64,000 nt of DNA from a virus, in IMG/VR virus record IMGVR_UViG_3300025133_005514, positions 9,075-73,074 of that record; one strand, given 5' to 3'. The notes beneath the pieces are model-generated. The model did no database searches, was not told the origin of the DNA, and worked only from the letters and a program-made list of their open reading frames with translations. The translations under genes and the position numbers were made by a program. Below are positions 944 to 59,992 of the stretch, piece by piece (within the stretch, counting starts at the first letter, position 1; every line of letters starts with the position of its first letter).

Positions 944-1774
944 GTGGCGAAGCCGCACATCGAGATTGGTGAGCTCCGCAAGTCTGGCCCCGTCGAGGTC
1001 GTGGCTGGGCGACTCTCCCAGTTGTGGCAGACACTGACCGGGGACGGGGTGAACATCAAGTCCACGGACTCGTCCCTTCCGTCGGGCGCGCTTCAGGTCT
1101 GGAAGTTCGGCCACAACGCGGCGGTGGGCACCTCCTACGAGACGATTTGGATCGTCGGCGGTCTCTACCCCTGGGGGTCGTGGAAGGCGTGGGATGACGC
1201 AACCGGCTCGGTCGTGACACTCAAGTCTACCGACGCTGCGGACACCTCCGTCGAGGTCGCGTGGGAGGGGCTCGGCGCCGACGGTGAGCTTGTCTCGGGA
1301 ACGACGACGACGGACGCTGTGGACGGGACCACGGGCGTAGCGGTCGCCACCAACCTCAACCGACTACATCGCGCGTATCGAGTCACCGCCGGCACATCGA
1401 CAGGCTCGCTCCAGCTCACAGTGGGTGGCACCGTCATCGCGCAGATTGAAACCGACCTCGCGGCGACCCAGTTGGGTCTGTACACCGTCCCGGCCGGGTA
1501 CACCGCCTACCTCCAGAGTCTGGACATCGCCGTGGACGACAACAGCGACGGACTCATCCAGTTGATGACTCGACCTGACGGGGACGCTTTCTACTCGCGC
1601 AGCGGGGGGCTTATGGTCAGCGGGGCGACGAGGATCAGCTACGCCAGCAGCGGATGGTCCTCGGGTCTTCCCTTTGTGGAAGGTACGGACATCGACGTGC
1701 GCGGGGTAAAGGTGTCCGGTGGCGGATCGCCCTTGATGTCGGTCAACTTCCACCTGGTATTGGATTCAGACTGA
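944..1774 (+). CDS. Conserved phage protein 'X' (left copy), beta-rich, probably virion-associated
   Basis: 276-aa ORF directly after the portal stop. 'KFGHNAAVGTSYETIW..GGLYPW' resembles a widespread uncharacterised phage protein motif. Core is duplicated at 59174-59992. Confidence 0.7.
   Translation: MAKPHIEIGELRKSGPVEVVAGRLSQLWQTLTGDGVNIKSTDSSLPSGALQVWKFGHNAAVGTSYETIWIVGGLYPWGSWKAWDDATGSVVTLKSTDAADTSVEVAWEGLGADGELVSGTTTTDAVDGTTGVAVATNLNRLHRAYRVTAGTSTGSLQLTVGGTVIAQIETDLAATQLGLYTVPAGYTAYLQSLDIAVDDNSDGLIQLMTRPDGDAFYSRSGGLMVSGATRISYASSGWSSGLPFVEGTDIDVRGVKVSGGGSPLMSVNFHLVLDSD
1087..1755 (+). repeat. 669-bp direct repeat, left copy
   Basis: Compared base by base with 59305-59973 (offset 58218). 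Three mismatches seen (1162 T/G, 1164 T/C, 1219 A/G). 1220-1755 is identical. Confidence 0.97.
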
Positions 1775-2088
1775 TGAACATCGACCCCAACAAAATCCTT
1801 CACGGAGCCATGGCTGCCGTGGTCGGCATCACCATCTCCTTCGTGTGGGAGGCGAACTCCCGGCTCGCCATCCTGGAGGATGACGTGGACGAGATGCTCG
1901 GCGTGGTGGAAGACCTCCACCCCCGGGGCACAGCTGCCCGTGGCGGGCCCCTCGCTCTCTTCCCCTTCGGCGGTAAGGACGACAGGTCCGAAGCCCGTCA
2001 GGAGCGGATGGAGGCCCTCAAGGAGAGAGCCCCGGTGGCTGACGATGACGACTCCGGGGATGATGACGACAGCGGAGGTTCGGAGTGA
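1774..2088 (+). CDS. Small membrane protein with coiled coil and acidic DDDDSG tail
   Basis: ATG overlaps upstream TGA (TGATG). One hydrophobic helix (AMAAVVGITISFVW). C-terminal DDDDSGDDDDSG. Confidence 0.65.
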   Translation: MNIDPNKILHGAMAAVVGITISFVWEANSRLAILEDDVDEMLGVVEDLHPRGTAARGGPLALFPFGGKDDRSEARQERMEALKERAPVADDDDSGDDDDSGGSE

Positions 2089-2456
2089 CTGACTACACCC
2101 TCATCGTGGCCATCGGCTGCGTCATTGCCGTTGCCAGTTACGGCCTGGTAGGGCAGCTGCTCAAGCCGATGCTTCGGCTGTGGGCCCGCATGAAGGCGCG
2201 CAAGGCTGGGCGAAAGCTCTACCCGGAGGAGGTGGAGTTGTTCAAGATCATGACCCAGAGCGGTGCCGTAGTTAGCGGCGGGCTCATGGGTGCTGGGCCC
2301 ATCTGGCCGGAGATGATTCCCTGGGCGATGGGTCCCTTGCTAGGGCTGGCCTTCGGCTCCCTCGCCATACCGCTCCACTCGGCTGTGAAGAAGGCGCTGC
2401 CCGAGAAGGTGGCCTCAGTCATCAGTGGCAAGAGCCCCAGAAAGTTGGACCTGTGA
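2085..2456 (+). CDS. Membrane protein, holin-like
   Basis: 123 aa, 2-3 hydrophobic segments, basic C-terminus, lysis-cassette context. Confidence 0.5.
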   Translation: MTDYTLIVAIGCVIAVASYGLVGQLLKPMLRLWARMKARKAGRKLYPEEVELFKIMTQSGAVVSGGLMGAGPIWPEMIPWAMGPLLGLAFGSLAIPLHSAVKKALPEKVASVISGKSPRKLDL

Positions 2457-2773
2457 GCCCCGATCCAATCAAGTCAGCCACCCCCTGGATGCTGGCCCTG
2501 CTGGTGGCCTGTGTCGGAATCGGGGTCGGCGTCACCTTGTTCATCCTGGGGCGTCAGGCTGAGGCTGTGGGTGCTGGCGCTGTGACGGTTGCTGCTGCTG
2601 CAAAGACCGTCCGCAAGACCAAGCGCTCCGCGAAGCAGCGGGACAAGGAGGAGCGGGCCGAGGTTGTGGACCTGCAAGAGCGGCTCGATAGCTCCAGCGC
2701 CAACGCGGACCTGGAAGCCATGCAGGAGAAGCTGAGGGCTAGGCGGGAAGGGGGCGACGATGGCGCTGCGTAG
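2453..2773 (+). CDS. Inner-membrane-anchored coiled-coil protein (i-spanin-like)
   Basis: N-terminal TM helix followed by a charged helical region. Overlaps the downstream lipoprotein gene. Confidence 0.5.
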   Translation: MSPDPIKSATPWMLALLVACVGIGVGVTLFILGRQAEAVGAGAVTVAAAAKTVRKTKRSAKQRDKEERAEVVDLQERLDSSSANADLEAMQEKLRARREGGDDGAA

Positions 2774-3194
2774 CTTGCTGCTGGTGCTGCTGCTCTGCTC
2801 GGGGTGCGGGCACGTCGCTCACAAGGGCCCCATCTGGAGCGCCGACTTCGCACGAGTCGATGTGCCCGAGGTCCCGGCTGTGCCGGAGGATGCTCCCGAG
2901 CCTGAGATCATGATGGAGGGCAGGGAGGCTCCCTTCACAGGGATGCTGCTGTCCCCGGAGGAGTTGGACTCCCTGCTCGTGGCTGCTGAGCAGCGTGAGG
3001 TTGTTGTCGAGGCTCTCGACCTGTCTTACCGGGGCAGAGCCCTGGACAGGGAGGAGGCTGAGGCGATCGTTGCCGCCCGGGAGCTACAGCTAGCCGAGGC
3101 TCGCAAGACCCAGGGCAGGATGTTTGCCGTAGGGATGGGGGCTGGCATTGCCGGCACCATGGCGGCGGTGCTGGCTATCGTTCTGGCGAAGTGA
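2760..3194 (+). CDS. Lipoprotein with C-terminal TM helix (spanin-like)
   Basis: Signal peptide with lipobox-like 'LLLCSGC', Pro-rich linker, C-terminal hydrophobic helix MFAVGMGAGIAGTMAAVLAIVLAK. Confidence 0.6.
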   Translation: MALRSLLLVLLLCSGCGHVAHKGPIWSADFARVDVPEVPAVPEDAPEPEIMMEGREAPFTGMLLSPEELDSLLVAAEQREVVVEALDLSYRGRALDREEAEAIVAARELQLAEARKTQGRMFAVGMGAGIAGTMAAVLAIVLAK

Positions 3195-3382
3195 CCGACA
3201 AGGACTTCCGCTGCTGGCTCGGCTCCGGCCTGTACCTGCTGCTCATGGTCTCGGTCGTGGTGTTCCTGACCCAGGTCCAGATCCCCCCGGAGAACCGCGA
3301 CATCATCGTGACGGTGATTGGCGTGATGGCCGGAGGGGTTGGGGCTGCGGTCAGCCGGTTTGTGGGTCGGAGGCAGGAGTAG
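3191..3382 (+). CDS. Small two-TM protein (holin-like)
   Basis: Two hydrophobic helices linked by 'IPPENRD'. GTGA overlap with upstream gene. Confidence 0.55.
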   Translation: MTDKDFRCWLGSGLYLLLMVSVVVFLTQVQIPPENRDIIVTVIGVMAGGVGAAVSRFVGRRQE

Positions 3383-3641: not shown

Positions 3642-3725
3642 ATCAGCCCACCCAAACGTAGCCCTGGGAGGGCACGTCCTCTGCTCGGTCCATCCATGAA
3701 ACGTGTCCACACCATCTCAAACCTC

Positions 3726-4474: not shown

Positions 4475-4551
4475 AATCAACCTCCCGCTTCCTCTAAGGT
4501 ACCACATCATTTCAGGACGATTGTGGCACCCTAGTGGAAGCGGCAGGCCAT

Positions 4552-5031: not shown

Positions 5032-5035
5032 TCCA

Positions 5036-7406: not shown

Positions 7407-7415
7407 CTCTATCTC

Positions 7416-7718: not shown

Positions 7719-7744
7719 TGCCGGGCCGTCCTTTCGCTGCAACT

Positions 7745-16696: not shown

Positions 16697-16948
16697 TCAG
16701 AGGTCCTCGTGTTCGAACGGGTCCACCTCGGCAGCCGTAGCCTCAGTCGGTACGGGGGCGGGCTCCAACCATCGGGCGAGCCGCTCCGTGCATTTGGCGC
16801 ACAGGTCAACGCGGATGGTTTCGGGAGCTATGTCGCCCCTGTGGTCGCCGCGCATCACCGGAAGGTCCAGACACATCCACCCAGACCTGCGGTCCGGGGG
16901 GCTCTGCTGCGCTTCGCAGCGGTCGCATCGCAGAACTTGAATCCTCAT
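16697..16948 (-). CDS. Small Zn-finger hypothetical protein
   Basis: CDRC...DLCAKC. ATGA overlap with ruvC. Confidence 0.65.
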   Translation of the reverse strand: MRIQVLRCDRCEAQQSPPDRRSGWMCLDLPVMRGDHRGDIAPETIRVDLCAKCTERLARWLEPAPVPTEATAAEVDPFEHEDL

Positions 16949-17406
16949 CCCACCAATTCCTCTCGCAAGTGCTCCGCAATCCACAGAGCGTCAGCCTCGT
17001 TGTCGTCGGATGGGTCCACACCCCATCGCTCTTTTGCGGCTTCAATCATCCGCTCCTTGTTGGCGTTGCCCTTGCCGGTAGCCAGCTTCTTCACCGAGCC
17101 GACGGGGCGGGCGGAGTACGCCTGCTCTCTGGCCTCGCACGCGCTGGTGATGACGGCGACGATCCCGCCATAGACGTGCGCTGCTGAGGTGCCCGCGTGT
17201 CGCCTGATCTCCTCGTAACCGACGACGGCGTCGGGGTAGGCGTCCAGAAGTTCGCTGAGGTAGCGGCGGGCGCGCAGGTAGCGCATTCCGCCACCCTCGT
17301 GCCGCCTGGACGACAGGTCCCACACGCCAGAGCCCAGCCTAGCTCCAGCCTTGCCGAGCACGGCCCAGCCGCACTTGGTGCCTGGGTCGATGCCGATGAC
17401 GATCAC
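16945..17406 (-). CDS. ruvC: RuvC-like Holliday junction resolvase
   Basis: 'IVIGIDPGTKCGWAV', 'YEE', 'VKKLATGKGNANKERM', 'DDNEADALWI'. Confidence 0.9.
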   Translation of the reverse strand: MIVIGIDPGTKCGWAVLGKAGARLGSGVWDLSSRRHEGGGMRYLRARRYLSELLDAYPDAVVGYEEIRRHAGTSAAHVYGGIVAVITSACEAREQAYSARPVGSVKKLATGKGNANKERMIEAAKERWGVDPSDDNEADALWIAEHLREELVG

Positions 17407-17476
17407 GGCGCCGCCCACGCCTGCCGCACGAGCGCCAGAAGGCACCCGAGGGTCGCGGGGTCTGAGAGGTCGGGGG

Positions 17477-17674
17477 TCATGACAGAGCCTTCCTAGTAGC
17501 AATGCGGCAGCGCCGGCAGCTGACTTCGTCCTTCGTCTCTGTGTCTGCCATGGCTCCCTTGTGGACAACGTCCAGACCGCAAGCTGTCTTGAACAGTCCC
17601 AACCTGCCAGAGGTGGCGAGGTGGACCTTCTTGCGGCCGTGGAAGCGGTAGCGGCGGGGCTTGAGGAGGCTCAC
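17477..17674 (-). CDS. Small Cys/His Zn-binding protein
   Basis: H..TACG..VSCRRC. Overlapping start/stop with neighbours. Confidence 0.55.
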   Translation of the reverse strand: MSLLKPRRYRFHGRKKVHLATSGRLGLFKTACGLDVVHKGAMADTETKDEVSCRRCRIATRKALS

Positions 17675-17841
17675 GGGACTGCCTCAATCCGATCACATCG
17701 GTAGGAGGCGTCGTCCAAAACCACCTTCCCCAAGAGGTCGCAGTCCTTTTTGGTAGCACTGTGGGCTGCGTCTACTCCGGCCCCAATGCCCAGCGCGGCC
17801 ATCAGAAGACCCACCAGCGAAAGCAGGACGATGTCGTTCAC
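17671..17841 (-). CDS. Small membrane protein
   Basis: Translated by hand: MNDIVLLSLVGLLMAALGIGAGV...; GTGA overlaps at both ends. Confidence 0.5.
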   Translation of the reverse strand: MNDIVLLSLVGLLMAALGIGAGVDAAHSATKKDCDLLGKVVLDDASYRCDRIEAVP

Positions 17842-18104
17842 GCCACCCCCCTAGCGCCGCCCAACACCGGGGTCAGACCGATGTCAGGCGGCTTGCCGGA
17901 CCCGGCGCGGTCCGACGTTTCTAGGCGGTAGACGGCGACGCCATCCTCGTAGGTCTTGCTGACGTCCCAGCCGGCGTAGCGGATGTACTTCAGGTGGCGG
18001 CTCACAGCGCGGTCGCTCAGCCCGAGCACCTCCCGCATCGTGACCCTCGCGGCTCCGTTCTGGAGCATTCGGAGGATGTACAAGGTCTTCACGGTCGGGC
18101 TCAT
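17838..18104 (-). CDS. Winged-HTH DNA-binding protein
   Basis: 'MREVLGLSDRAVSRHLKYIRYAGWDV' (HTH_11-like). Confidence 0.75.
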   Translation of the reverse strand: MSPTVKTLYILRMLQNGAARVTMREVLGLSDRAVSRHLKYIRYAGWDVSKTYEDGVAVYRLETSDRAGSGKPPDIGLTPVLGGARGVA

Positions 18105-18319
18105 CGCTGCCTCCTGTGCCACATGGTTCGACCCTCCTTGAGCCGGTCCTTACCCTCCTTGGTCTGCGCCACACAGATGGGGCAAGGGAAGGTGAGGCGG
18201 TGGGACTGGCACTGCTTGGTGCGAATCTCTTCGCACTGCCGGCAGACGCCGTGCTGCCCCAGGGGCAGGCAGCAGTCGGGCTCGGGACAGAGTTTCCTAT
18301 CGCGGGCTTCGAACTTCAT
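18101..18319 (-). CDS. Cys-rich small protein
   Basis: Eight Cys in 72 aa. ATGA overlaps. Confidence 0.5.
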   Translation of the reverse strand: MKFEARDRKLCPEPDCCLPLGQHGVCRQCEEIRTKQCQSHRLTFPCPICVAQTKEGKDRLKEGRTMWHRRQR

Positions 18320-18885
18320 CGCGGCACCACCTCCAGCCTGGCTTGTGAGCGAATCCCCCACATCTCTATTCCCCGCCTCCAGACAAACCAGGCGTAGTCG
18401 GTCGCGTCGGTCTTGCCGTCGCCGGTAAAGCTGGGCCTGCGAGCCATCACAATCACGCGCTCCAGTGCGGAGTCAGGACCCACAAGGTCAATGCGCTTGG
18501 TGCTGCTCCCGAGGAAGTTCAAGCGAAGCAGGGCACAAACCACCCCACCCACCTCAACCGCGTCCAGGGCCTTCCGCACGAATTCTGCGGCCATCTTGTA
18601 AGGGGGGTTCATCACCACCGCCGACTGGTCGCTGAGGTCCTGAACCAGGAAGTCTCCCGCCCTTGAGCAGATACCCGGGGACGCCGGAGGTGGTTCGGTG
18701 TCGTAGGCGTTCACGGCGTGACCGTGGTTGTTGAGAACCTTGGCGATTGCCAGAGTCCCACACCCTGCGTCCAGCACACAGTGCGGCAGATGCACCCTGG
18801 AGAGGAGCACTTCGGTACACCAGGCTGGTGTTTCAAAGAAGTCGCGGCCTTGGCCTCCGCGTGGATTACGACCTGCCGCGCTCAC
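18316..18885 (-). CDS. Amino (N6A/N4C) DNA methyltransferase
   Basis: 'DFFETPAW', SAM motif 'VLDAGCG', catalytic 'MNPPY', 'YAWFVW'. Confidence 0.85.
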   Translation of the reverse strand: MSAAGRNPRGGQGRDFFETPAWCTEVLLSRVHLPHCVLDAGCGTLAIAKVLNNHGHAVNAYDTEPPPASPGICSRAGDFLVQDLSDQSAVVMNPPYKMAAEFVRKALDAVEVGGVVCALLRLNFLGSSTKRIDLVGPDSALERVIVMARRPSFTGDGKTDATDYAWFVWRRGIEMWGIRSQARLEVVPR

Positions 18886-19067
18886 GGAGCCCCCGAATCT
18901 TTGCCAGGGCGTCCATCGCCCTACGGTTGGCTGCGGCCCAGTCCTTCACCAGCCGGTCCTCTGGTGGTGGCGGGGCCCCTGCGGCCACCTCCGTCGCGAT
19001 GACGGAGGCGAGCGCGCTGGCTTCGCTGGAGGCTCTGGCGTAGTTGTTGTAGTCGCCCAGGTCCGGC

Positions 19068-20114
19068 CTAGAAGTGGGGGGCATCGTCGTCCCCCAGCGG
19101 AGCGTCGTCCGGCGGCCCGTCACCACCGGGCGGCATCTCGGCCTGCTTCATCAGCCACTCCTCCATCTGCACGATGAGGTCGTTGCCCTCGTCCAGCTTG
19201 ATGGACGGAATGCGGCGGCGGCCCACCACGGCGTCCCAGGCGGCGCGGCGGTTGGACCGGTAGCCGTTGAGCTTGGCGTGGAGGGTGACGAGGCCGTTGC
19301 CGCTGGGCTCCGCGTCCACCTCGATGGGCTCGACGTCCATCACCTTGTCGGCCGGGTGTCCGGGGGCCAGCAGGCTGCTGCCAGCGGACGGCATGACTCG
19401 GCGGTCCTCCGACGTCAGCGCGGAGTTCAGGTCCTCCCCGCCCTCGGTGGCGATGGGGAGCATCTTGACCAGCCGGCGCACGGCCGTCTTCTTCGCCATC
19501 TCCGGGTAGTGGTCGCGCCAGGGGCCCCACTCTCCCTTGCTCTGCGTGTTCCGCATGATGCGGTTGACCTCGCCGACGCTCATGACGGTGAACTGGTAGC
19601 TCATGCCGTCCTTGAAGCGGGCGATGGCGTAGACGCGGGTGATGCGCCCCCGGTCCTCGTCGGTGGACGGGATGTGCTTCAGCTTCTCGTCCAGCCCCAA
19701 CTCGTACTCGAAGAAGTCCTTCTCGTACACGCACTCAGCCGTGAGGGTGGCCACCTCGCCGGCCCGCCGAACGAGGCTGATGAGCCCCCGGTAGCCGATG
19801 ATGAGGGTGCACTCGCTGACCCGCTTCTTCTTGTTGTAGTGCGGCACCAGGTACGCCTGACCCAGGGCTCCGCCGGACGGGTCGAGTCCGTACTTCGCGG
19901 CCTCCAGCACCGACAGCAGGAAGCTCTGCGGGTCGCACTCCTGAAGCTTGGGGTTCTGCTTCCAGCAGGCAACAGCGATGCGCTGGAGCTTGTCGGCGGT
20001 GAGGTGGCGCGTAGCGACCTCGGTGAGGGCGGTGGTGATCGCCGGGGACTTGATGCGCTCCAGGAGCGCCTGCTCGCGGTCCCGCTTGGCGGGGACTTGC
20101 ACTCGTTCAGCCAT
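19068..20114 (-). CDS. recT: RecT-family single-strand annealing protein
   Basis: 'NPKLQECDPQSF', 'LGQAYLVP', 'IIGYRGLISL', 'GPWRDHYPEMAKKTAVRRLVKMLP'. Confidence 0.95.
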   Translation of the reverse strand: MAERVQVPAKRDREQALLERIKSPAITTALTEVATRHLTADKLQRIAVACWKQNPKLQECDPQSFLLSVLEAAKYGLDPSGGALGQAYLVPHYNKKKRVSECTLIIGYRGLISLVRRAGEVATLTAECVYEKDFFEYELGLDEKLKHIPSTDEDRGRITRVYAIARFKDGMSYQFTVMSVGEVNRIMRNTQSKGEWGPWRDHYPEMAKKTAVRRLVKMLPIATEGGEDLNSALTSEDRRVMPSAGSSLLAPGHPADKVMDVEPIEVDAEPSGNGLVTLHAKLNGYRSNRRAAWDAVVGRRRIPSIKLDEGNDLIVQMEEWLMKQAEMPPGGDGPPDDAPLGDDDAPHF

Positions 20115-20116
20115 TT

Positions 20117-21250
20117 CTACTTCTCCTTGGGAAGGGTGATGAGATTCTGTCGGTCAACGTGCTTGAGGTGTTCTTCTGCGATTCCCTGAGCCTTGGGGGG
20201 TAGGGCCTCCAGCCATGCTGCGAGCCCGCCGGACTTCGGCCGCTTCGGCTCGAACGTCTCGGAGAAGTCGGCCCCCTCCTCCAGCGCTGCTGCGGCGATG
20301 GCCTGCCAGAGGTGGCCCCGGACCTCCTTGTCCACGTTCTTTCGGCTCCAGGTTCGGCCGGGGACGCGGTTCATGCCGAGGGTGGTTCCGTCCTCAAGCT
20401 CCAGAGGAGAGGTGCGCTCGCGGAGGCGGGCCATCAGGTCGTCCTTGGCCATGCTGGTCACGTGCTTGAGCAGCTGCCATCGGCGGTACAGGAGTTCGTC
20501 ATCCTGGGTGCCGTAGGTCATGTCACCAACCACCTCGGCCCCCTCCTGCGCCATGCAGTGGGTCCGGTACGGGCACCGCCCGCAGTGCTCGCCGGGGCGG
20601 AAGTCTCGCCCCAACTCCTCGTGCGGCACCTTGTCCCGCTGCACGCAGGCGGCAAACAGCGCCTGGGCCCTCTTGTGGAACCAGTCGGCCGGCTTCGCAA
20701 TCTGCTGCCCGACCTTGAACCGGAGGTTCCAGTAGGTGAACACAACCTTGCCCACGGTCAGGTACTGGGCAACGGCCGAGCCGTAGGAGATAGCCTGAGG
20801 CTCGTTGTCCAGGTTGTTGTCGCTGGTCAGGCCCTGGGCCGTCTTCCAGTCGTCCACCATGGCGACACCCATGTCCGACCTGAAGCCGTCCGGGGTCACC
20901 GAGTAGTAGGTGCCGCTGGTGGGCTCCTCCTCGGTCCAATCCTCCACGACGCCCTTGTTGCCGATGCGGCCGTAGAGGGTTCGCTCGATGAAGTCGTTGT
21001 GGATACCGAGCAGCCCCATGTCGGCCGCGTTCTCGTACAGCTTCTCGCTGTCCCGCAACTCCACCACGGACAGGGAGGAGGGCGGCTCCGGCTGGTCGAT
21101 ACCCAACCCGTTCGCCTCCACCTTGTGGTGGACGTGTCGGCCTACCCCGTACCCAGACCAGTCGTCCGAGGGCTTGAGGCCGAGCCTCTGCCACAGGGAG
21201 CTTCGGGGGCACAGAGAGTCCCACTTCACAGTTGTGCTTCGCCACCTCAC
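20117..21250 (-). CDS. PD-(D/E)XK exonuclease, Cas4/AddB-like with Fe-S cysteines (RecT partner)
   Basis: 'PDG..DDWKT..Q.ISY'. N-terminal LCP and C-terminal CGRCPYRTHC. GTG start overlaps upstream stop. Confidence 0.8.
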   Translation of the reverse strand: MRWRSTTVKWDSLCPRSSLWQRLGLKPSDDWSGYGVGRHVHHKVEANGLGIDQPEPPSSLSVVELRDSEKLYENAADMGLLGIHNDFIERTLYGRIGNKGVVEDWTEEEPTSGTYYSVTPDGFRSDMGVAMVDDWKTAQGLTSDNNLDNEPQAISYGSAVAQYLTVGKVVFTYWNLRFKVGQQIAKPADWFHKRAQALFAACVQRDKVPHEELGRDFRPGEHCGRCPYRTHCMAQEGAEVVGDMTYGTQDDELLYRRWQLLKHVTSMAKDDLMARLRERTSPLELEDGTTLGMNRVPGRTWSRKNVDKEVRGHLWQAIAAAALEEGADFSETFEPKRPKSGGLAAWLEALPPKAQGIAEEHLKHVDRQNLITLPKEK

Positions 21251-21486
21251 TGAACCAACCCCACTACCTTCTCTACGAAGTCTGCAATCTTCATGTCGCC
21301 TCGTTCGATGTGGTTCCATTTGCCCTTGCCGTGAGGGCGGTAGGAAGCGCTCTCGTCGGCCACCACGGCCACGCGCTCGTTGTCGCTGTAGCGCTTGATG
21401 ATGGTCGTCGGCCCCTCGGCCAGAGCCCAGAACTTGTTCGGGATGACGTCCTCGACGTAGACGTATGTGCGTCCGCCAGCCATCAC
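21247..21486 (-). CDS. Hypothetical protein
   Basis: GGAG RBS, coupled to neighbours. Confidence 0.55.
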   Translation of the reverse strand: MMAGGRTYVYVEDVIPNKFWALAEGPTTIIKRYSDNERVAVVADESASYRPHGKGKWNHIERGDMKIADFVEKVVGLVQ

Positions 21487-28654: not shown

Positions 28655-29267
28655 CAGCAGACGAGTCGGCGGAGCAAGAACCTGGGCCACAGCCGCCCAG
28701 GCTGAAGACCATCAGCGCGAAGCTCTCAAGCAGAAGCGCGGTGGCTCACACGGCCGGACACAGAGCGTTGTCCCAGAATTCAGAGATGAGAACGATCGCT
28801 ACCTTTGGGAGCTAGCTCGCTGGAGGGCCGGCTCCTTTATCCGTGTCGGCTTCTGTAGCGCCTCAGGATGGATGGGGTCTGACGAGCGAGTCTATGTTGG
28901 GCACCCGGTTCACCCCGGGGCCCCCGTGTTTGAGGACCCCGACTGCTTCAAGGCGTTCAAGGCAGCGAATGCTGCCGGGTACATCGGCTGCACCCAGGTG
29001 GCCAACGCTGCCCCCTTCCGCATCACGAAGTACGAGGTCCGCAAGGTCATCCAGTCGAACCTGGACAAGTTGAACGTCGGGTTCGTCCGCTACCCGCACA
29101 AGATGAACAGGTCCAAAGTGTGGGTCTGCACCTTCCTGCATGAGGATGAGGTGGCGGACTTCCTGGCTTCGTTCAGGGAGTACGCGGCTGCGTCCATCAA
29201 GAAGATGAGCGCCGGGTTGGTGCCGTTCAAGCAGGACCTGATGAGGAACTTCCGGGAGATCAAATGA
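28647..29267 (+). CDS. Hypothetical protein upstream of TerL
   Basis: 206-aa ORF coupled to both neighbours. Occupies the TerS position but has no recognisable TerS motif. Confidence 0.55.
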   Translation: MRSSRRVGGARTWATAAQAEDHQREALKQKRGGSHGRTQSVVPEFRDENDRYLWELARWRAGSFIRVGFCSASGWMGSDERVYVGHPVHPGAPVFEDPDCFKAFKAANAAGYIGCTQVANAAPFRITKYEVRKVIQSNLDKLNVGFVRYPHKMNRSKVWVCTFLHEDEVADFLASFREYAAASIKKMSAGLVPFKQDLMRNFREIK

Positions 29268-31192: not shown

Positions 31193-31769
31193 CGACCCGG
31201 TATTCCCGGGGCTGGCCGGTAGCCTCCAGGGCTCCGCTGCGGGACAGGTAGGAGATGGCTCCCCTGGCTTGGCCGCCGGTCAACTTCGTGCTGGCAACCA
31301 CATCTCGGTAGCTGACGATGCCGTCGTTCTCCTTCACAGCCCACCTCAGCACGGTCTCGGAGGGTTTTTCGAAGAGGCCGGTGCGCTTGTCAACGTGGAT
31401 GATCTCCCCGTCGGCGTCCACCTTGATGACCTTGCCGACCTTGCCCTTGCGGGGGGAGGGGTCGTCGCCGTCGTCGTGGACGTGGGTCCCAACATGGGCT
31501 GTCTGCCGGTCGCGCTCCTCCTTGCCGTAGAACTTCTTGCCCTTTAGCCCGGGGGTAGCGGTACGGCCCCACCATCCACGGGGGGTGATGTCCTTGGGGG
31601 CCCCATCAGCCGGCCACCATCTCTTGCTGGTAGCAACCTGGCCGCAGGTTCCGCACTGCGTGTCCCTGAAGCCGTCCTTCTTGGACTGCATGTACAGGTA
31701 GGCAGAGGTGTTGAGTTCCCACGCTGCGCCGCAGGAGGAGAAGGAGCAGATCATCGGGTAGATGGGCAT
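31176..31769 (-). CDS. FmdB-like zinc-ribbon protein with C-terminal winged helix
   Basis: 'MPIYPMIC..SCG...QCGTCG'. C-terminal 'VSYRDVVASTKLTGGQARGAISYLSRSG'. TGATG coupling to portal. Confidence 0.75.
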   Translation of the reverse strand: MPIYPMICSFSSCGAAWELNTSAYLYMQSKKDGFRDTQCGTCGQVATSKRWWPADGAPKDITPRGWWGRTATPGLKGKKFYGKEERDRQTAHVGTHVHDDGDDPSPRKGKVGKVIKVDADGEIIHVDKRTGLFEKPSETVLRWAVKENDGIVSYRDVVASTKLTGGQARGAISYLSRSGALEATGQPREYRVVTVSA

Positions 31770-33706
31770 CAGAAGTTTCCTCCGAAGGGTCCGCCACCGC
31801 CGCCGGCACCGGAGATTGGAACAGCCTGACCAGCCCCCGGACGGGGTCCTCCACCAGCCAACTCAGCCTCGCTCGGGGCCGGGAGACCCGGTCCACCACC
31901 ACCTGAAGCACCAGCGGTGCCGGCGTTAACCAGCTGACCCAGCGGCGACATGAGCCCGCTGTTGGCCTGCCAGAGCGAGAAAGCCTTCTCCAGGTAAGAG
32001 CGCACCGTCTGGTCGTCAACCATGCCCAGTTGCGCCAACTGACCGAAGGTCTCCAGGGTCTTGTCGATGGTGGAGAGCAAGCCGATGTAAGCCTGGGCCT
32101 CCTCAGCCGGGTCCTTGCCGATGGCGCTGCCGGCCTCGATGTTGACGTCGTAGGAGGAGCCAACCTTGGACGAGTCGAAGGTCTCAAAGCCCTCCTGCCC
32201 AGACTCCCCGATGACCCGCATGTGCCGAGGCTCATCCCAGTACTGGGCAACCACGGACAGGAGCACGCGGGAGATGTCCTCCATAAACTGCTCAACAGCA
32301 GCGAGCCGAACGCCGGCACGGCTGTTGGAGCCCTGAGCAGCAACGGACACCTCGGTAGCCGTGGTGCCCTTCCGGCCCACGCCGCCCCGCTGGTAGACGT
32401 CTACGCCCGACAGTTCGTACATCATGCGCTGAAGGCCCTGAAGGACCGTCATGGTGGTGCTGGGCGGCGGAGCCTCAGGCAGGAGCATGACCACCTTGCG
32501 GATGTCGTCCGTGGCCACCGGAAGCTCGGCAACCTCCAGGTCGATGCCGCTCTCCAGTAGCGCAGTCAGCTGCCCGCCTTCCAGGGCTCCCTGGAGGGCG
32601 ACGAACTTGCGCTTGCTGGACCTCTCGTGGTGGTTGAGCAGGTAGTTCCACTCCGTGTTCAGGCGGCTGCTCGGCTCCTGGATGATGGCCAGGTCGGCTG
32701 CGGTGGTGGTGTACAGCTTCCCGGGGATGCGAACGAAGGACAGGGTTCGGTAGGGGTAGCCGCTGATGTCCATCGGGTCGTTGATGTGTCGGAGCACGCA
32801 GTCCTTCGGGGACAGCCCATCCCGGGGCTTCACAATCCAGAGGATGCGGCGCTGCATCGTGTCCTTGACACGGGCCCAGTAGCGAATCTCGTAGACCATG
32901 ACGTGGTCGGCCGCTGTGTCGGGCTGACTGTGTCGGTTGTGAGGGTCGTTCCCGGCCAGGGAGGTGGGGATGGAGTCCATCACCCAGGAGTCGGCCTCCA
33001 AAGCCTTGGGCACCTTGAACCGTCCGTCGTTCCGAAGGTCGTCAAGCATGAAGGGGATGCGCTCGGCGACCCAGGGGGCCTTGCGGAGCTTGTCGTAGCC
33101 CAGAGGGACCAGCAGGTTCCAGGGGGCGATGCGGTTGAAGACCGGCATGTCGTCCTCGGAGTCCGAGGCGATGGGAATGTCCACCTCTGCCATCATCCGA
33201 AGCAGGGTTCGCCGCTGCTGGTCGTCCAGCTGGGTCTCTTCAGTCCCCTGAGTCGGACCGCGTTCGTACTCATCAGCCATCAGGAAGGCGTCACTGTCGT
33301 CGTAGCTGACCTTGCCCACACCTAGGTTGAACAGAAGGGCGTCCAAAGCGGCCTCCTGTGTGGTCTCCAGAGCCCGAATCTCCCGCCACACGTAGTTCAC
33401 GGTGGCCTCTGCCACCTTGGCGGTCTCCTCGTCACCCGGTCGGCGAGGCTTTGCCCGGATGTACGGGTTGGTTGAGACGATTGAGGGCAGGAGGGAGTTG
33501 GCCGTAGCCAGCAGGAAGTTGAAGTTGACCCCGCTCTCCGGCGTCACCAGCGAGTTGCGGTCGTGCTCCTTGAGACCCTCGTAGTCGGACAAGATGTCCC
33601 GCCAACGGGGGAGAATCTCCTCGTCAAGGAAGTCTTCGACAGCGCTAATCTTCTCGGCCCAAGCCGAGACTTCGCTTTCCGCAATGGGCATCTTTCTCTG
33701 TGTCAT
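31769..33706 (-). CDS. Portal protein (phage A), encoded on the opposite strand
   Basis: 645 aa. 'NPYIRAKPRRPGDEETAKVAEATVNYVW', 'DALLFNLGVGKV', 'TATEV'. P22/podoviral type. AGGAG RBS. Confidence 0.9.
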   Translation of the reverse strand: MTQRKMPIAESEVSAWAEKISAVEDFLDEEILPRWRDILSDYEGLKEHDRNSLVTPESGVNFNFLLATANSLLPSIVSTNPYIRAKPRRPGDEETAKVAEATVNYVWREIRALETTQEAALDALLFNLGVGKVSYDDSDAFLMADEYERGPTQGTEETQLDDQQRRTLLRMMAEVDIPIASDSEDDMPVFNRIAPWNLLVPLGYDKLRKAPWVAERIPFMLDDLRNDGRFKVPKALEADSWVMDSIPTSLAGNDPHNRHSQPDTAADHVMVYEIRYWARVKDTMQRRILWIVKPRDGLSPKDCVLRHINDPMDISGYPYRTLSFVRIPGKLYTTTAADLAIIQEPSSRLNTEWNYLLNHHERSSKRKFVALQGALEGGQLTALLESGIDLEVAELPVATDDIRKVVMLLPEAPPPSTTMTVLQGLQRMMYELSGVDVYQRGGVGRKGTTATEVSVAAQGSNSRAGVRLAAVEQFMEDISRVLLSVVAQYWDEPRHMRVIGESGQEGFETFDSSKVGSSYDVNIEAGSAIGKDPAEEAQAYIGLLSTIDKTLETFGQLAQLGMVDDQTVRSYLEKAFSLWQANSGLMSPLGQLVNAGTAGASGGGGPGLPAPSEAELAGGGPRPGAGQAVPISGAGGGGGPFGGNF

Positions 33707-33799: not shown

Positions 33800-34582
33800 A
33801 TGACCGAGGCGGTTACCGACAACTTCGACGAGGCCCTTGGCAACGAGGACAACCCCGACGAGGCCGGCACTGACATCACGGACGAGACACCTGACGACAC
33901 GGAAGGAGAACCGGATTATTCCGATCCGGTAGCTTGGCTAGACACCCAGGACAACGTCCCGGATGAGGTCAAGCAAGCGGTCAAGAATGGGTTCCTGCGG
34001 CGAAGCGATTACTCGCAGAAGACGCAGGCGCTAGCGAAGAAGCGTGACCTTGTTGACGAAATCCTGCTTCAGCGGGAAGCCGGCAAGGACAAGCCTCAGC
34101 CCCAGGTTGAGGAGAAGCCCCCGCCTTCATTGAAGGAGGGAGCCACGCCCGAAGAGGTGATTGACCATTACGTGCAGCAGGCCGTCCAGGCCAAGCTTGA
34201 AGCCCTCGGTATCAACAATACCGTCGAGCAGATGAAGCCCCTGGTAGACAAGCAGCGCGTTGTGGACGCTTACCGCGACTACGCAAGCGAGAACCCCGAC
34301 CAGGACCACGCCACCCTTTCCGCAGCCGTCGGGCAAGTTCTCGACACCGATCCCGAGCTTGAACAGCTAGCCATTACGAACCCGCGAGCAGCGGTTCGTG
34401 CAGCAGCGCGCATCGCTTCTGCCGAACTCCGGGTCGCGAAGAGTAGGGCCAGCAAGAAGCGAAAGAGGGCTACAGCACCAGCTTCAGCCAGAGCTTCTAC
34501 GTCTCGGGTAGCTACGGGGGGCAAGCGATTGACCCCCCTGGAAGCCGCGACGCAGGCTCTGAAGGAGCAGGGAGCCCTCTAG
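33800..34582 (+). CDS. Capsid scaffolding protein (phage A)
   Basis: Acidic N-terminus, 'SDYSQKTQALA' scaffold motif, directly upstream of MCP. Confidence 0.85.
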   Translation: MTEAVTDNFDEALGNEDNPDEAGTDITDETPDDTEGEPDYSDPVAWLDTQDNVPDEVKQAVKNGFLRRSDYSQKTQALAKKRDLVDEILLQREAGKDKPQPQVEEKPPPSLKEGATPEEVIDHYVQQAVQAKLEALGINNTVEQMKPLVDKQRVVDAYRDYASENPDQDHATLSAAVGQVLDTDPELEQLAITNPRAAVRAAARIASAELRVAKSRASKKRKRATAPASARASTSRVATGGKRLTPLEAATQALKEQGAL

Positions 34583-34594
34583 GGAGTCTGAAAA

Positions 34595-35668
34595 TTGGCC
34601 GCCGTTACCGCCTCAATTGAGTTTGATCGGGTTTACTCGACAACTCTCGCTGTCCAGCGCGACGACGTCGCGATGGAGATCGTCCAGTCCAACCCCCTCC
34701 TCTGGCACATGTACCGCCAGGGCGCAGTCCAGTACGACGGTGGAACGGAAGTTCGCCAGCCGGTCGTCCTGGAAGAGACCGCCAACATCTCGGCGATCTC
34801 GACCTACGAGACCTTCGGCACCACGCCGGAAGACGGGCCCGACACGGCTCGCTACCCGACCTGGTACAAGAACCGCGCCTCCATCGTCCTGGACAACACC
34901 GAGTTGGCCCAGAACCGTGGCGCGTCTCAGATCGTCTCGCTCCTGAACAGCAAGCTCGCGATTGCGAAGATCAGCATGATCAACGACATCGCCCGCCAGC
35001 TGTACGCTGACAACTCCGCCCTCCCCAAGGAGATCAACGGCCTTCAGTCGGACTTCCTGGAGTTTTCGGCCGAGGCCGCTCAGACCGGCACGGTCGGCGG
35101 CATCAGCAAGGCTGGCTACGCCAACTGGCGCAACCGCTACCAGCAGATCACCGCCTTCGGGACGGACGGACTGGACCAGTGGGAGCAGCTGTACATGGAG
35201 TGCTCGCAGCGGGGTACGCACCCCGACATCATCCTGACCGACCCCGCCGTCTACCGCTTCTTCAAGCGGACGGTCGCGGCCAACCAGGCTGAGCGCGACA
35301 ACGCCATGTGGGACCAGGGTTTCCACAACCTCCTCTTCGAAGGTACGCCCGTCGTGCCCGACTACGAGTTGGACGGAACCGGTCAGACGTACATGCTGAC
35401 CACGACCGGAAAGCGCGGAGTCAACGACTTCAACCTGAAGCCCGAGTACTTCACGGTCCCCGGCAAGAACCCGCTGGCCAAGGGCAAGCACACCGGCATC
35501 GGCCTCGGCCTCGCGATTCTGTCGCAGGACGATTTCCGCATGACGGACTTCATGACCCCGCCCAACGCTGACACCATCCTCGCCCACTGCTACCTGTCGT
35601 GCATGTTGGTCACTGCGTCCGAAGGACGTCAGGGCTGCTCGGACTTCAGCGGCACCGTCCAGTTCTAG
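34595..35668 (+). CDS. Major capsid protein (phage A)
   Basis: 357 aa, TTG start with GGGAG RBS, highly biased codons. 'NPLLWHM', 'INGLQ', 'PDIILTD', 'GFHNLLFEGTPVVPD'. Confidence 0.9.
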   Translation: MAAVTASIEFDRVYSTTLAVQRDDVAMEIVQSNPLLWHMYRQGAVQYDGGTEVRQPVVLEETANISAISTYETFGTTPEDGPDTARYPTWYKNRASIVLDNTELAQNRGASQIVSLLNSKLAIAKISMINDIARQLYADNSALPKEINGLQSDFLEFSAEAAQTGTVGGISKAGYANWRNRYQQITAFGTDGLDQWEQLYMECSQRGTHPDIILTDPAVYRFFKRTVAANQAERDNAMWDQGFHNLLFEGTPVVPDYELDGTGQTYMLTTTGKRGVNDFNLKPEYFTVPGKNPLAKGKHTGIGLGLAILSQDDFRMTDFMTPPNADTILAHCYLSCMLVTASEGRQGCSDFSGTVQF

Positions 35669-57529: not shown

Positions 57530-57990
57530 TGATCCTCATCGTCAACGATGATCCCGCGCTCACCCAAGTCCTTGTGGGCATCCTGTCCGACGTAGACAGC
57601 CTCACCGTGGCAGACACCCATGACGAGGCCATGATGCTGGCCCAGGATGCTGGCACCATCCTGTACGACCTCGGACTACCCGACGTGGTGGACGACAAGA
57701 TTGGGGCGCTGCGGCAACTGGTGGACACGTCCCCCCTGACCCCGGTGATCGTGATTACCGGCGAGGACCTGACCGACGCAGCCATTGCGGCTGGCGCAAC
57801 CGACGTCATCCACAAACCCTTCACCAGAGAGGCCCTGCTGGAGAGGCTCAAGGTTTCGACATCAGCCAGCTACCGAACTGGGGTGGTCGGCCTCGCTGTG
57901 ACGGGGCTTTTCAACCGGGCTGTGGGCACCTTCTGCGGTGACTTCGGGCCACTGGGGGATTCGGTTATCGACACCCTGCCCCTAGGGTAG
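57529..57990 (+). CDS. Stand-alone response-regulator receiver domain protein
   Basis: 'ILIVNDD', phosphoacceptor 'LYDLGLPD', 'VIVITG', 'GATDVIHKPF'. Confidence 0.88.
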   Translation: MILIVNDDPALTQVLVGILSDVDSLTVADTHDEAMMLAQDAGTILYDLGLPDVVDDKIGALRQLVDTSPLTPVIVITGEDLTDAAIAAGATDVIHKPFTREALLERLKVSTSASYRTGVVGLAVTGLFNRAVGTFCGDFGPLGDSVIDTLPLG

Positions 57991-57995: not shown

Positions 57996-58352
57996 ATGCC
58001 CTCAGACAGCCGACAGCCGCCCCCCGCAGGGGGATGGCGCAAACCCCAGGGGCTCCTCCCTCCGGCCGTTGCCTCCGAGATTCTCAGAGAGTTCGGCGAC
58101 GGGCTGGCCCGTGTCGAGCGGCATCTTGTCGCTGCTCACGTAGAACCCCTTACCAAGGAGGTCCACAAGCTCGCGGACATCGTGATGAAGCTAAAGAGGA
58201 TCGAGGACGAGCGGGCCATGGAGGCCAAGCTCCGGGCCAAGATTGAGGCGAGACCAAAGTGGATGACCTACGCAATCGAGAAGGCCATCACGCTCGGCGT
58301 CGGTGGTCTGCTGGTGTTGCTCGGACTCGGTTTGAAAGCGTGGCTGGGGTAG
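57996..58352 (+). CDS. Coiled-coil protein with C-terminal TM (XhlA/holin-associated type)
   Basis: Heptad region, then ITLGVGGLLVLLGLGL. Upstream of endolysin. Confidence 0.55.
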   Translation: MPSDSRQPPPAGGWRKPQGLLPPAVASEILREFGDGLARVERHLVAAHVEPLTKEVHKLADIVMKLKRIEDERAMEAKLRAKIEARPKWMTYAIEKAITLGVGGLLVLLGLGLKAWLG

Positions 58353-58562
58353 GGCGGTTCATGAATCGCAAGCAGGGCACGGCCTTCGCTATCCTGCTCG
58401 TGACCGAGGCCCTCATCCCCATAGAGAGGTTGGGGCGATGACCCTCCTTGAGATAGAGGCTAGGTGCTCCCTCGTTCTCGCCGGTATGCTCTGGGTGCTG
58501 GGCCTTTGCAAGCTCAGCTTCGCCCTTGCCAGCCACGCTGATGACCTTGGGAGGTTGCTCTG

Positions 58563-59174
58563 ATGTTCGACCAGCTGGACCACCTTGAACTCCTCAAGGA
58601 AGCCAACGCCAACCGGGACAACCCGGACTGGCCCTCGGCCGACTACGACGGGGACGGAGAGAGGGACCTCGCCTACCTAGGCCCGGTGTCCAGGGATGCC
58701 TTGTTCGGACCGCTTGAGTGGGTGCCGGTGGAGGGCTCCAGTAGTTCCATCGAAATCACCAACGGCTGGCGCAAGAGCCTGGTGACTGTAGTGGTGCCGC
58801 AACTGGTTGGCCTGGACTGCTACGGCAACGAGTTCAGCGGCAAGGTCCGCATCCACAAGCTGGTGGCCGACCAGTTGCTCGGCTTCTTTGACGAGGTGGA
58901 GAAGGCCGGACTCAAGAGCCTGCTCAAAAGCTGGGGCGGCAGCTTCGTTCCTCGCCGCATCCGAGACAGAGACAGCTTGAGCAACCACGCTTACGGCGTT
59001 GCGTTCGACCTCAACATGAAGTGGAACGGGTTGGGCAAGGTGCCGGCCCTGGCGGGGGAGGCCGGGACGGTGCGCCCTCTGGTTCCCATCGCCTCGCGGT
59101 GGGGGTTGTACTGGGGCGGGCACTACAACAGTCGTAGCGATGGAATGCACTTCGAATTCGTAGAGGTAGTCTAG
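58563..59174 (+). CDS. Endolysin, peptidase M15 family
   Basis: 'SWGGSFVPR', 'SNHAYGVAFD' (SxHxxGxAxD), 'WGG..DGMHFE'. Confidence 0.92.
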   Translation: MFDQLDHLELLKEANANRDNPDWPSADYDGDGERDLAYLGPVSRDALFGPLEWVPVEGSSSSIEITNGWRKSLVTVVVPQLVGLDCYGNEFSGKVRIHKLVADQLLGFFDEVEKAGLKSLLKSWGGSFVPRRIRDRDSLSNHAYGVAFDLNMKWNGLGKVPALAGEAGTVRPLVPIASRWGLYWGGHYNSRSDGMHFEFVEVV

Positions 59175-59992
59175 TGCCCGAAGACGCCACCGAGCCGGGG
59201 CTCCTTCGCGCGCAGGTCCGTCGCCTTGTGGATGAGTTGCGCGGCATCCGTCGTAAGATCCACGGCACCCTCACTGTAGAGACGCAGGACAAGCTCCCAG
59301 CCGCCGCGCTTCAGGTCTGGAAGTTCGGCCACAACGCGGCGGTGGGCACCTCCTACGAGACGATTTGGATCGTCGGCGGGCCCTACCCCTGGGGGTCGTG
59401 GAAGGCGTGGGATGACGCAACCGGCTCGGTCGTGACGCTCAAGTCTACCGACGCTGCGGACACCTCCGTCGAGGTCGCGTGGGAGGGGCTCGGCGCCGAC
59501 GGTGAGCTTGTCTCGGGAACGACGACGACGGACGCTGTGGACGGGACCACGGGCGTAGCGGTCGCCACCAACCTCAACCGACTACATCGCGCGTATCGAG
59601 TCACCGCCGGCACATCGACAGGCTCGCTCCAGCTCACAGTGGGTGGCACCGTCATCGCGCAGATTGAAACCGACCTCGCGGCGACCCAGTTGGGTCTGTA
59701 CACCGTCCCGGCCGGGTACACCGCCTACCTCCAGAGTCTGGACATCGCCGTGGACGACAACAGCGACGGACTCATCCAGTTGATGACTCGACCTGACGGG
59801 GACGCTTTCTACTCGCGCAGCGGGGGGCTTATGGTCAGCGGGGCGACGAGGATCAGCTACGCCAGCAGCGGATGGTCCTCGGGTCTTCCCTTTGTGGAAG
59901 GTACGGACATCGACGTGCGCGGGGTAAAGGTGTCCGGTGGCGGATCGCCCTTGATGTCGGTCAACTTCCACCTCGCCCTGGAGCCGTCCTGA
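59174..59992 (+). CDS. Conserved phage protein 'X' (right copy, different N- and C-termini)
   Basis: Core near-identical to 944-1774. Confidence 0.7.
   Translation: MPEDATEPGLLRAQVRRLVDELRGIRRKIHGTLTVETQDKLPAAALQVWKFGHNAAVGTSYETIWIVGGPYPWGSWKAWDDATGSVVTLKSTDAADTSVEVAWEGLGADGELVSGTTTTDAVDGTTGVAVATNLNRLHRAYRVTAGTSTGSLQLTVGGTVIAQIETDLAATQLGLYTVPAGYTAYLQSLDIAVDDNSDGLIQLMTRPDGDAFYSRSGGLMVSGATRISYASSGWSSGLPFVEGTDIDVRGVKVSGGGSPLMSVNFHLALEPS
59305..59973 (+). repeat. 669-bp direct repeat, right copy
   Basis: See 1087-1755. Confidence 0.97.

What the first reader, a model, noticed from the sequence alone, without database searches (positions are those of the whole stretch)
1087..59973. A whole 58.2-kb phage genome nested inside another phage's head operon via a 669-bp shared gene
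Seen: a 669-bp direct repeat (3 mismatches, last 536 bp identical) bounds a complete phage gene set. Excising through it restores both parents. Phage B becomes portal-X-Zn ribbon-scaffold-MCP, and phage A's circle becomes endolysin-X-holin/spanin-like genes. No integrase was seen, but A encodes RecT, an exonuclease and RuvC. Inference: either a real single-crossover cointegrate of two co-infecting phages, or an assembly chimera across a repeat longer than the reads. The chimera is at least as likely.
Basis: partly seen in the sequence, partly recalled or inferred. Interest (0 to 1): 0.75.

Follow-up and report, generated by a model that had tools for sequence, protein, structure and literature searches.

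The report
Two phages joined by assembler
A complete 58-kb phage genome seems to sit inside another phage's head genes, but this is most likely an assembly artefact: the two marine phages share one near-identical 669-base piece of a gene.

Summary
Window 1087-1755 and 59305-59973 are a 669-bp direct repeat with 3 mismatches (1162, 1164, 1219) and 536 identical final bases. It is the only repeat in the 73,074-bp contig. The 57.5 kb between the copies (phage A) has its own terminase, portal, scaffold, capsid, tail, lysis and replication genes. The flanks (phage B) carry a second, distantly related head module, 25-29% identical in protein.

The nesting is most likely not a real molecule.
- An independent metagenome contig (L001) runs B-left, X, B-right at 99.4-99.6% identity with no insert.
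- A 16.5-kb Logan contig of run X4 does the same.
- In the probable source run the graph breaks exactly at the repeat edges. B-left and B-right have depths 51.7 and 51.8, and three A contigs 41.1-42.5.
- The A:B depth ratio differs among the four runs laid.

Caveats: no A-X-A contig was seen. Two other assemblies hold an X protein with the A-type start and the B-type end. No single molecule was tested.

What is real: a closed 58,218-bp phage A genome, a partial phage B, and a recently exchanged jelly-roll domain of an uncharacterised phage protein (phrog_8198).

Chimera about 0.8. Interest is low.

The parts
1..943 (+). Phage B portal gene, C-terminal part (the gene starts 997 bases before the window)
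   Evidence: Pfam SU10_portal E 1.7e-11 and P22_portal 3.1e-8. PHROG portal families. 24.6% identical to the phage A portal.
944..1774 (+). X1: B-type N-terminus, shared core and A-type last 5 residues. As assembled this is probably a chimeric reading frame.
   Evidence: phrog_8198 E 1.5e-31. Translation. This C-terminus occurs in 1 of the 8 members of its 90% cluster, the window's own.
1087..1755 (+). Repeat copy 1 (shared core of X), carrying the B-type letters at 1162, 1164 and 1219
   Evidence: It is identical to L001 over all 669 bp. It forms a separate 669-bp unitig of depth 77 in run X1.
1756..59304 (.). Unique part of phage A. With one core copy it closes into a 58,218-bp unit.
   Evidence: Logan contigs of this part have depth 41.1-42.5 in run X1.
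1774..2088 (+). 104-aa protein with one hydrophobic segment. Its ATG overlaps the X1 stop codon.
   Evidence: Translation. No PHROG family.
2085..2773 (+). Two small genes: 2085-2456 with several hydrophobic segments (holin-like by inference) and 2453-2773 with a weak Rz-like spanin hit
   Evidence: translation. (phrog_1403, E 0.0039 only).
16945..21319 (-). Recombination genes of A: RuvC-like 16945-17568, RecT 19068-20114, exonuclease 20117-21319
   Evidence: PHROG E 3.9e-27 and 1.1e-65, and 1.7e-6.
29264..31192 (+). Phage A large terminase
   Evidence: PHROG terminase families. 29% identical over 625 aa to the B terminase, E 1e-69.
31769..33706 (-). Phage A portal, on the opposite strand to its neighbours
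   Evidence: phrog_1216 E 1.5e-16..
33800..35668 (+). Phage A scaffold-like gene (33800-34582) and major capsid gene (34595-35668)
   Evidence: phrog_3927 E 3.3e-6 and phrog_9953 E 1.6e-42.
58563..59174 (+). Phage A endolysin (M15 peptidase)
   Evidence: Pfam Peptidase_M15_4 E 6.9e-15. PHROG endolysin families.
59174..59992 (+). X2: A-type N-terminus, shared core and B-type last 5 residues
   Evidence: phrog_8198 E 1.7e-29. Translation.
59305..59973 (+). Repeat copy 2, carrying the A-type letters at the three variable sites
59992..60648 (+). Phage B 218-aa protein with one CxxC. Its ATG overlaps the X2 stop codon.
   Evidence: No PHROG or Pfam family. Collinear with L001.
60658..62756 (+). Phage B scaffold-like gene (60658-61632) and major capsid gene (61665-62756)
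   Evidence: phrog_3927 E 2.6e-7. phrog_9953 E 1.6e-16. 27% identical to the A capsid protein.

Best explanation
The contig is an assembly chimera of two separate marine phages. Phage A is a complete genome that closes on itself at 58,218 bp. Phage B is known only in part, about 23.7 kb.

Both phages carry a homologue of the same uncharacterised jelly-roll gene X. The 669 bases that encode its folded domain are 99.6% identical between them, which points to a recent natural recombination between phages of one community. That stretch has a 536-bp identical run, longer than short reads can bridge.

In the assembly graph the core is therefore one shared node with two ways in and two ways out. The assembler walked B-left, core, all round A, core again, and out to B-right. 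That is the one path that uses every edge of this graph.

Shown here: the repeat, the two gene sets, the graph breaks at the repeat edges, the paired depths, and the B-X-B form in other data. Inferred: that A exists as A-X-A, and how the assembler chose its path.
For: 1. Independent B-X-B. Metagenome contig L001 aligns to contig bases 540-10829 (up to window 1755) and then straight on to window 59305-63282. Identity is 99.4% and 99.6%, with no A sequence. Its core and 150-bp flanks equal B-left plus copy 1 and B-right.

2. In run X4 one 16,491-bp Logan contig (depth 9.98) covers window 1-1755 and runs on into the B-right letters. A is present there only as three pieces of 200-566 bp at depth 2.2-3.6.

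3. In run X1 (share 1.00, possibly the source sample) the contigs stop within 30 bases of the repeat edges. Depths are B-left 51.7 (9457 bp), B-right 51.8 (4057 bp), A-left 42.3 (713 bp), A-right 41.1 (1531 bp) and 42.5 (11,091 bp). The core is a separate 669-bp unitig at depth 77. The depth steps at both edges and pairs parent with parent.

4. The A:B depth ratio differs between runs:
- about 0.8 in X1
- about 0.4-0.7 in X2 (A 4.7-8.6 against B 12-13)
- about 0.2-0.35 in X4

5. Of the 8 proteins in X's 90% cluster, 3 full-length ones (P0001, P0101, P0102) have the B start and the B end. Contigs of 17,519 and 11,733 bp that hold them also hold B-right genes.

6. Tetranucleotide signatures of B-left and B-right pieces correlate at 0.82-0.87 with each other, against 0.52-0.83 with the 14 A pieces.

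7. X relatives sit in both kinds of context in other viral contigs, so each phage can own its X. Only 4 of 80 loci were inspected:
- L028: TerL, portal, X, then a protease-like gene and, two genes further on, the MCP
- L058: TerL, X, portal
- L018: a tail-fibre gene about 1 kb upstream of X

8. Repeat-driven chimeric contigs and unitigs shared between mosaic phages are described in print. I read passages only of PMC3901335 and PMC10104058.
Against: No contig or protein with the A start and the A end (A-X-A) was found. 0 of the 8 cluster members have it.

Two proteins from other assemblies, P0105 (1503-bp contig) and P0106 (1504-bp contig), have the A start and the B end, the same recombinant type as X2, with 1-2 residue differences. 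I could not fetch their contigs. They may be the same artefact, if assemblers follow the deeper B exit. They may be a longer natural exchange tract. Or they may be a real A-left to B-right joint.

In the four runs laid, B depth is equal to or above A depth. That also fits a model in which every A sits inside a B and some B is free.

Logan contigs cannot span a 536-bp identical stretch, so no single molecule was observed. Depth is one mean figure per contig. Run X1 may be the source sample and is then not independent.
Confidence: 0.82

Rival explanations
1. A real cointegrate. In cells infected by both phages, one homologous crossover in the shared X core, perhaps helped by A's RecT, exonuclease and RuvC, put the whole circular A genome into B. 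That molecule was abundant enough to be assembled.
For: The structure is exactly what a single crossover between a circle and a line gives. A encodes RecT, an exonuclease and a RuvC-like resolvase. Proteins with the A start and B end occur in two other assemblies (P0105, P0106). B depth is at or above A depth in all four runs laid.
Against: B-left and B-right are about 10 depth units above A in run X1, and the ratio changes between runs, so at least part of B lacks A. B-X-B is assembled in independent data. The joint molecule would be at least 58.2 + 23.7 = 81.9 kb. Both phages have capsid, portal and terminase genes of similar size, so such a molecule could hardly be packaged as a unit (inference). 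Homologous crossovers reverse easily, so a population in which every A is inserted is unlikely (inference). Nothing seen needs this reading.
Confidence: 0.08
2. One large phage genome that truly carries two copies of X and two head modules.
For: All of it lies on one contig, and both X copies are open frames.
Against: Depths of the A and B parts differ in runs X1, X2 and X4. B is found without A in L001 and in run X4. Two full and distantly related terminase, portal and capsid sets in one phage have no precedent that I know of (recalled, not searched).
Confidence: 0.02
3. Site-specific integration of A into B, as a prophage or satellite would integrate, with the repeat acting as an attachment site.
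For: A direct repeat bounds the inserted unit.
Against: None of the 53 A ORFs scanned against PHROGs matched an integrase or recombinase family. The repeat is 669 bp of coding sequence for a whole protein domain, not a short core site.
Confidence: 0.01

Closest known systems
Inter-genome chimeric contigs caused by a shared repeat in metagenome or virome assembly
   Same: The joints fall exactly on the edges of a near-identical stretch that short reads cannot bridge. The shared stretch is one graph node with two entries and two exits, and the depths of the flanks pair up by parent. Passages in PMC3901335 report chimeric contigs at all taxonomic levels in simulated viromes. Passages in PMC10104058 describe unitigs shared between mosaic phage genomes (passages only).
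   Different: Here a whole closed genome is looped into the walk rather than two fragments being joined end to end. The product therefore mimics an insertion with perfect 'target duplication'.
Cointegrates formed by homologous recombination between replicons (Campbell-type single crossover)
   Same: Same topology: a circle inserted into another replicon and bounded by direct copies of the shared segment.
   Different: The stoichiometry of the flanks is unequal and varies between samples, and the parental B joint is present. No spanning molecule was seen.
Mosaic exchange of surface-protein domains between phages (modular evolution of phage genomes)
   Same: A phage-specific N-terminal segment of about 47 residues is followed by a shared folded domain. 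The identical DNA (residues 49-271) coincides with the confident beta-sandwich part of the model (46-276). That mosaic phages exchange modules is recalled knowledge and is also stated in PMC10104058 passages.
   Different: The function of X is unknown (phrog_8198). It lies in the head module in B and next to the lysis genes in A. Structural matches are generic jelly rolls at Z 9.5 or less.

Membership tests
Repeat-induced assembly chimera | The joints coincide with the edges of a near-identical repeat that reads cannot bridge | tested here: met
   The repeat is 1087-1755 and 59305-59973 with a 536-bp identical run. Logan contigs of runs X1-X3 end or start within 30 bases of 1087 and 1755. The read length of the original assembly is not known to me.
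Repeat-induced assembly chimera | Depth steps at the repeat edges and pairs the flanks by parent | tested here: met
   Run X1: B-left 51.7, B-right 51.8, A-left 42.3, A-right 41.1 and 42.5, core 77. Depth is a mean per contig.
Repeat-induced assembly chimera | Both parental joints exist in independent data | tested here: inconclusive
   B-X-B is present in L001 and in the 16,491-bp contig of run X4. A-X-A was not seen: 0 of 8 cluster members.
Repeat-induced assembly chimera | The recombinant joints are absent from independent data | tested here: inconclusive
   The B-start plus A-end form occurs only in the window. The A-start plus B-end form occurs in P0105 and P0106 from other assemblies.
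Homologous-recombination cointegrate | All four flanks are in equal amount, and in a fixed ratio across samples | tested here: not met
   51.7 and 51.8 against 41.1-42.5 in run X1. The ratio is about 0.4-0.7 in X2 and about 0.2-0.35 in X4. A mixture of cointegrate with free B is not excluded.
Homologous-recombination cointegrate | Single molecules span both recombinant joints | not testable with these tools
   Only Logan contigs were available for the runs laid. They cannot bridge 536 identical bases.
Site-specific (integrase) insertion | An integrase or recombinase gene in the inserted element | tested here: not met
   None of the 53 A ORFs scanned against PHROGs hit such a family at E<=0.01 or 0.001. 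Small ORFs were not all scanned.
phrog_8198 (uncharacterised phage protein family) | A significant full-length profile match | tested here: met
   X1 E 1.5e-31 (residues 47-272) and X2 E 1.7e-29. 98 relatives in the protein collection. At least 552 relatives in viral contigs.

The most novel reading that the evidence does not exclude
The joint is a real molecule. Two marine phages share under 30% protein identity in terminase, portal and capsid genes, yet they infect the same cells and recombine through the identical core of a jelly-roll surface-protein gene. The metagenome would then have caught the Campbell-type cointegrate that mediates such domain swaps. The A-start/B-end proteins in two other assemblies would be traces of the same joint.
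Probability: 0.08. Interest if true: 0.55.

Novelty: not a real feature. Interest (0 to 1): 0.15.

Why it matters
The nested genome itself should not be taken as biology. The practical gains are these:
- The 73-kb record should be split into a complete, closed 58,218-bp phage A and a partial phage B.
- The two X reading frames on the contig are probably swapped at their last five codons.
- Counts that treat this contig as one virus, such as 'two terminases' or 'two portals', are misled.

One real point is left. Two co-occurring phages are otherwise about 25-29% identical in hallmark proteins, yet they share a 669-bp stretch at 99.6% identity. That stretch encodes exactly the folded domain of a widespread but uncharacterised phage protein. 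This is a clean example of very recent domain exchange, and it hints that the two phages share a host.

Tried and rejected
Searches that gave little or nothing:
- Near and distant DNA searches of the phage collection with B-left (window 1-1086) and with A (window 36000-60000) found nothing.
- A close-relative scan of viral contigs with X2 found nothing.
- A profile scan of one-genome-per-species contigs found only 6 distant X relatives on small MAG contigs and gave no host clue.
- tblastn of 33 A and B proteins against the 80 viral loci holding X relatives hit only terminases, in 4 loci. Context therefore had to be read from PHROG scans of 10 neighbour proteins in 4 loci.

The function of X stays open:
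- Foldseek against the PDB gave only low TM scores (0.19 or less) to birnavirus VP2 and PHM.
- VIA-align gave Z 9.5 or less to generic jelly rolls such as the HFTV1 turret, STIV A223, XepA and phage cement proteins. That is barely above the tool's stated background of 7-8.
- The protein Atlas returned only unnamed viral clusters.

A cluster look-up of ten neighbour proteins found no long independent A contig across X. The only other sizeable one found is 21,670 bp and holds a portal variant.

Depth alone cannot rule out 'all A inserted plus free B', so I do not claim that it does.

Supplementary files of the two papers were not opened. They might hold further examples of looped-in genomes.


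Full report
WHAT IS THERE

The window is bases 9075-73074 of a single linear 73,074-bp contig with no N and no terminal overlap. A register comparison shows that window 1087-1755 equals 59305-59973 (669 bp, spacing 58,218). The only mismatches are at 1162, 1164 and 1219, so the last 536 bp are identical. Identity drops to background at once on both sides. Self-blastn of the whole contig finds no other repeat.

THE GENE THAT HOLDS THE REPEAT

The repeat lies inside two copies of one gene: X1 at 944-1774 (276 aa) and X2 at 59174-59992 (272 aa). They are 97% identical over 234 residues. Their first ~47 residues do not align, and their last five residues differ. Both match phrog_8198, a family of unknown function (E 1.5e-31 and 1.7e-29), and no Pfam family.

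An AlphaFold2 model was built from 76 aligned relatives (mean pLDDT 88.4). Residues 1-45 have low confidence, and residues 46-276 form a confident all-beta sandwich. The identical DNA (residues 49-271) therefore codes for exactly the folded domain.

Structure searches give only generic jelly-roll matches, and function stays open:
- Foldseek TM scores are 0.19 or less.
- VIA-align Z is 9.5 or less, to virion turret and cement proteins and to XepA.
- The protein Atlas gives unnamed viral clusters only.

The family is common: 98 relatives in the protein collection and at least 552 in viral contigs.

TWO GENE SETS

The 57.5 kb between the copies (phage A) encodes the following:
- two HNH endonucleases and an AAA ATPase
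- a RuvC-like resolvase (16945-17568, E 3.9e-27), RecT (19068-20114, E 1.1e-65) and an exonuclease (20117-21319, E 1.7e-6)
- methyltransferases and a primase/helicase
- TerL (29264-31192) and a portal on the minus strand (31769-33706)
- a scaffold-like protein (33800-34582) and the MCP (34595-35668, E 1.6e-42)
- tail and virion proteins and a 3490-aa ORF
- an M15 endolysin (58563-59174)

None of the 53 A ORFs scanned matched an integrase.

The flanks (phage B) carry the following:
- TerL (contig 6080-8086, E 5.2e-23) and a portal (ending at window 943)
- after X2, a 218-aa protein with one CxxC and no family match
- a scaffold-like protein (60658-61632) and the MCP (61665-62756, E 1.6e-16)

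A and B are relatives, but distant ones. TerL is 29% identical, the portal 24.6% and the MCP 26.9%. There are therefore two phages on the contig, not one.

IS THE JOINT REAL?

Four lines of evidence say that it probably is not.

(i) An independent metagenome contig of 22,993 bp (locus L001) aligns to contig 540-10829 (up to window 1755) and then directly to window 59305-63282. Identity is 99.4% and 99.6%, and there is no A sequence. Its core is identical to copy 1, and its 150-bp flanks match B-left and B-right perfectly.

(ii) The run search listed 24 runs. I laid the Logan contigs of the four with the largest shares, X1-X4, on window 1-6000.
- In run X4 one 16,491-bp contig (depth 9.98) covers 1-1755 and runs on into B-right letters. 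A is present there only as three pieces of 200-566 bp at depth 2.2-3.6.
- In run X1 (share 1.00, possibly the source, so not independent) the contigs break within 30 bases of 1087 and 1755. The core is a separate 669-bp unitig of depth 77. B-left has depth 51.7 and B-right 51.8. A-left has 42.3 and A-right 41.1 and 42.5.
- In run X2, B is at 12-13 and A at 4.7-8.6. One 4563-bp contig goes from the core into B-right.

So depth steps at both repeat edges, pairs the flanks by parent, and varies in ratio between samples.

(iii) Of the 8 proteins in X's 90% cluster, three full-length ones (P0001, P0101, P0102) have the B start and the B end. Contigs of 17,519 and 11,733 bp that hold them also hold B-right genes.

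(iv) Tetranucleotide signatures of the B-left and B-right pieces correlate at 0.82-0.87 with each other, against 0.52-0.83 with the 14 A pieces.

In this graph the only walk that uses every edge is B-left, core, A loop, core, B-right, and that is exactly the contig. That an assembler chose this walk is my inference. Repeat-driven chimeras and shared unitigs in phage graphs are described in PMC3901335 and PMC10104058 (passages only).

WHAT SPEAKS AGAINST THE CHIMERA READING

- No A-X-A contig or protein was found (0 of 8 cluster members).
- Two proteins from other assemblies (P0105 and P0106, on contigs of 1503 and 1504 bp) have the A start and the B end, like X2, with 1-2 residue differences. 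They may be the same artefact, since a greedy assembler leaving the core follows the deeper B exit, as Logan did in run X2. They may be a longer natural exchange tract. Or they may be a true A-left/B-right joint.
- In all four runs laid, B depth is at or above A depth. That also fits 'every A inside a B, plus free B'.
- Contigs cannot bridge 536 identical bases, so no single molecule was observed.

Against the cointegrate I add an inference. Known B is about 23.7 kb (22,993 bp of L001's contig plus 718 bp). The joint molecule would then be at least 81.9 kb, hard to package in a capsid made for about 58 kb. I put the chimera at 0.82, a real cointegrate at 0.08, and the other readings at 0.03 together. 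The remainder stays unassigned.

WHAT IS REAL AND HOW IT AROSE

Both phages own an X gene.
- The A-type 3' end after 1755 is a diverged but recognisable X end. Relatives P0002 and P0003 end in a similar way.
- Each downstream gene starts at an ATG that overlaps the X stop codon.
- X relatives elsewhere sit in head modules and near a tail-fibre gene. L028 has TerL, portal, X, then a protease-like gene and, two genes further on, the MCP. L058 has TerL, X, portal. L018 has a tail-fibre gene about 1 kb upstream of X. Only 4 of 80 loci were inspected.

The most likely history is a recent homologous exchange of the domain-coding part of X between two phages of one community. That exchange left a 669-bp near-identical tract with sharp edges, which then misled the assembler.

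Phage A closes at 58,218 bp and looks complete. Phage B is partial.

VERDICT

The nested genome is most probably an artefact, the shared domain is ordinary phage mosaicism, and interest is low.

Noticed in passing
window 31176-33706 (- strand): Phage A's portal gene and a 197-aa ORF (31176-31769) lie on the opposite strand to the terminase before them and the scaffold and capsid genes after them. This is an inverted cassette inside the head module.
   Followed up: partly
window 45859-56331 (+): A single 3490-aa ORF in phage A's tail region. It has only weak PHROG hits: phrog_9880 (E 1.2e-16, unknown function) and a tape-measure family (E 2.8e-8).
   Followed up: no
window 57529-57990 (+): A stand-alone response-regulator receiver domain (Pfam PF00072, E 1.6e-12) lies among phage A's late genes, two genes upstream of the endolysin.
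   Followed up: partly
window 3917-4681 (-) and 22288-23100 (-): Two HNH endonuclease paralogues in phage A, 37% identical. The second lies next to a gene that hits 'DNA polymerase exonuclease subunit' (21653-22291).
   Followed up: no
window 3227-3265: In run X1 a 39-bp unitig here has depth 184, about four times its flanks (41-42.5). It breaks the A contigs, so this short stretch is shared with other genomes in that sample.
   Followed up: no
L002 (contig bases 438-4116, before the window): Just upstream of phage B's terminase lie sugar-pathway genes: a UDP-GlcNAc 2-epimerase fragment, NeuB (E 5.5e-39), a hexapeptide acetyltransferase with an HTH tail, and a cytidylyltransferase. The same order is present in L001.
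   Followed up: partly
window 7743-8507: A stretch of about 765 bp between divergent gene blocks of phage A has no ORF with the coding GC3 pattern. I did not examine it for RNA structure.
   Followed up: no
L001 1-405 against contig bases 135-539: The first 405 bases of L001 do not align with the corresponding part of the window's contig, although the next 10.3 kb are 99.4% identical. This is a local replacement in phage B's sugar-gene region.
   Followed up: no
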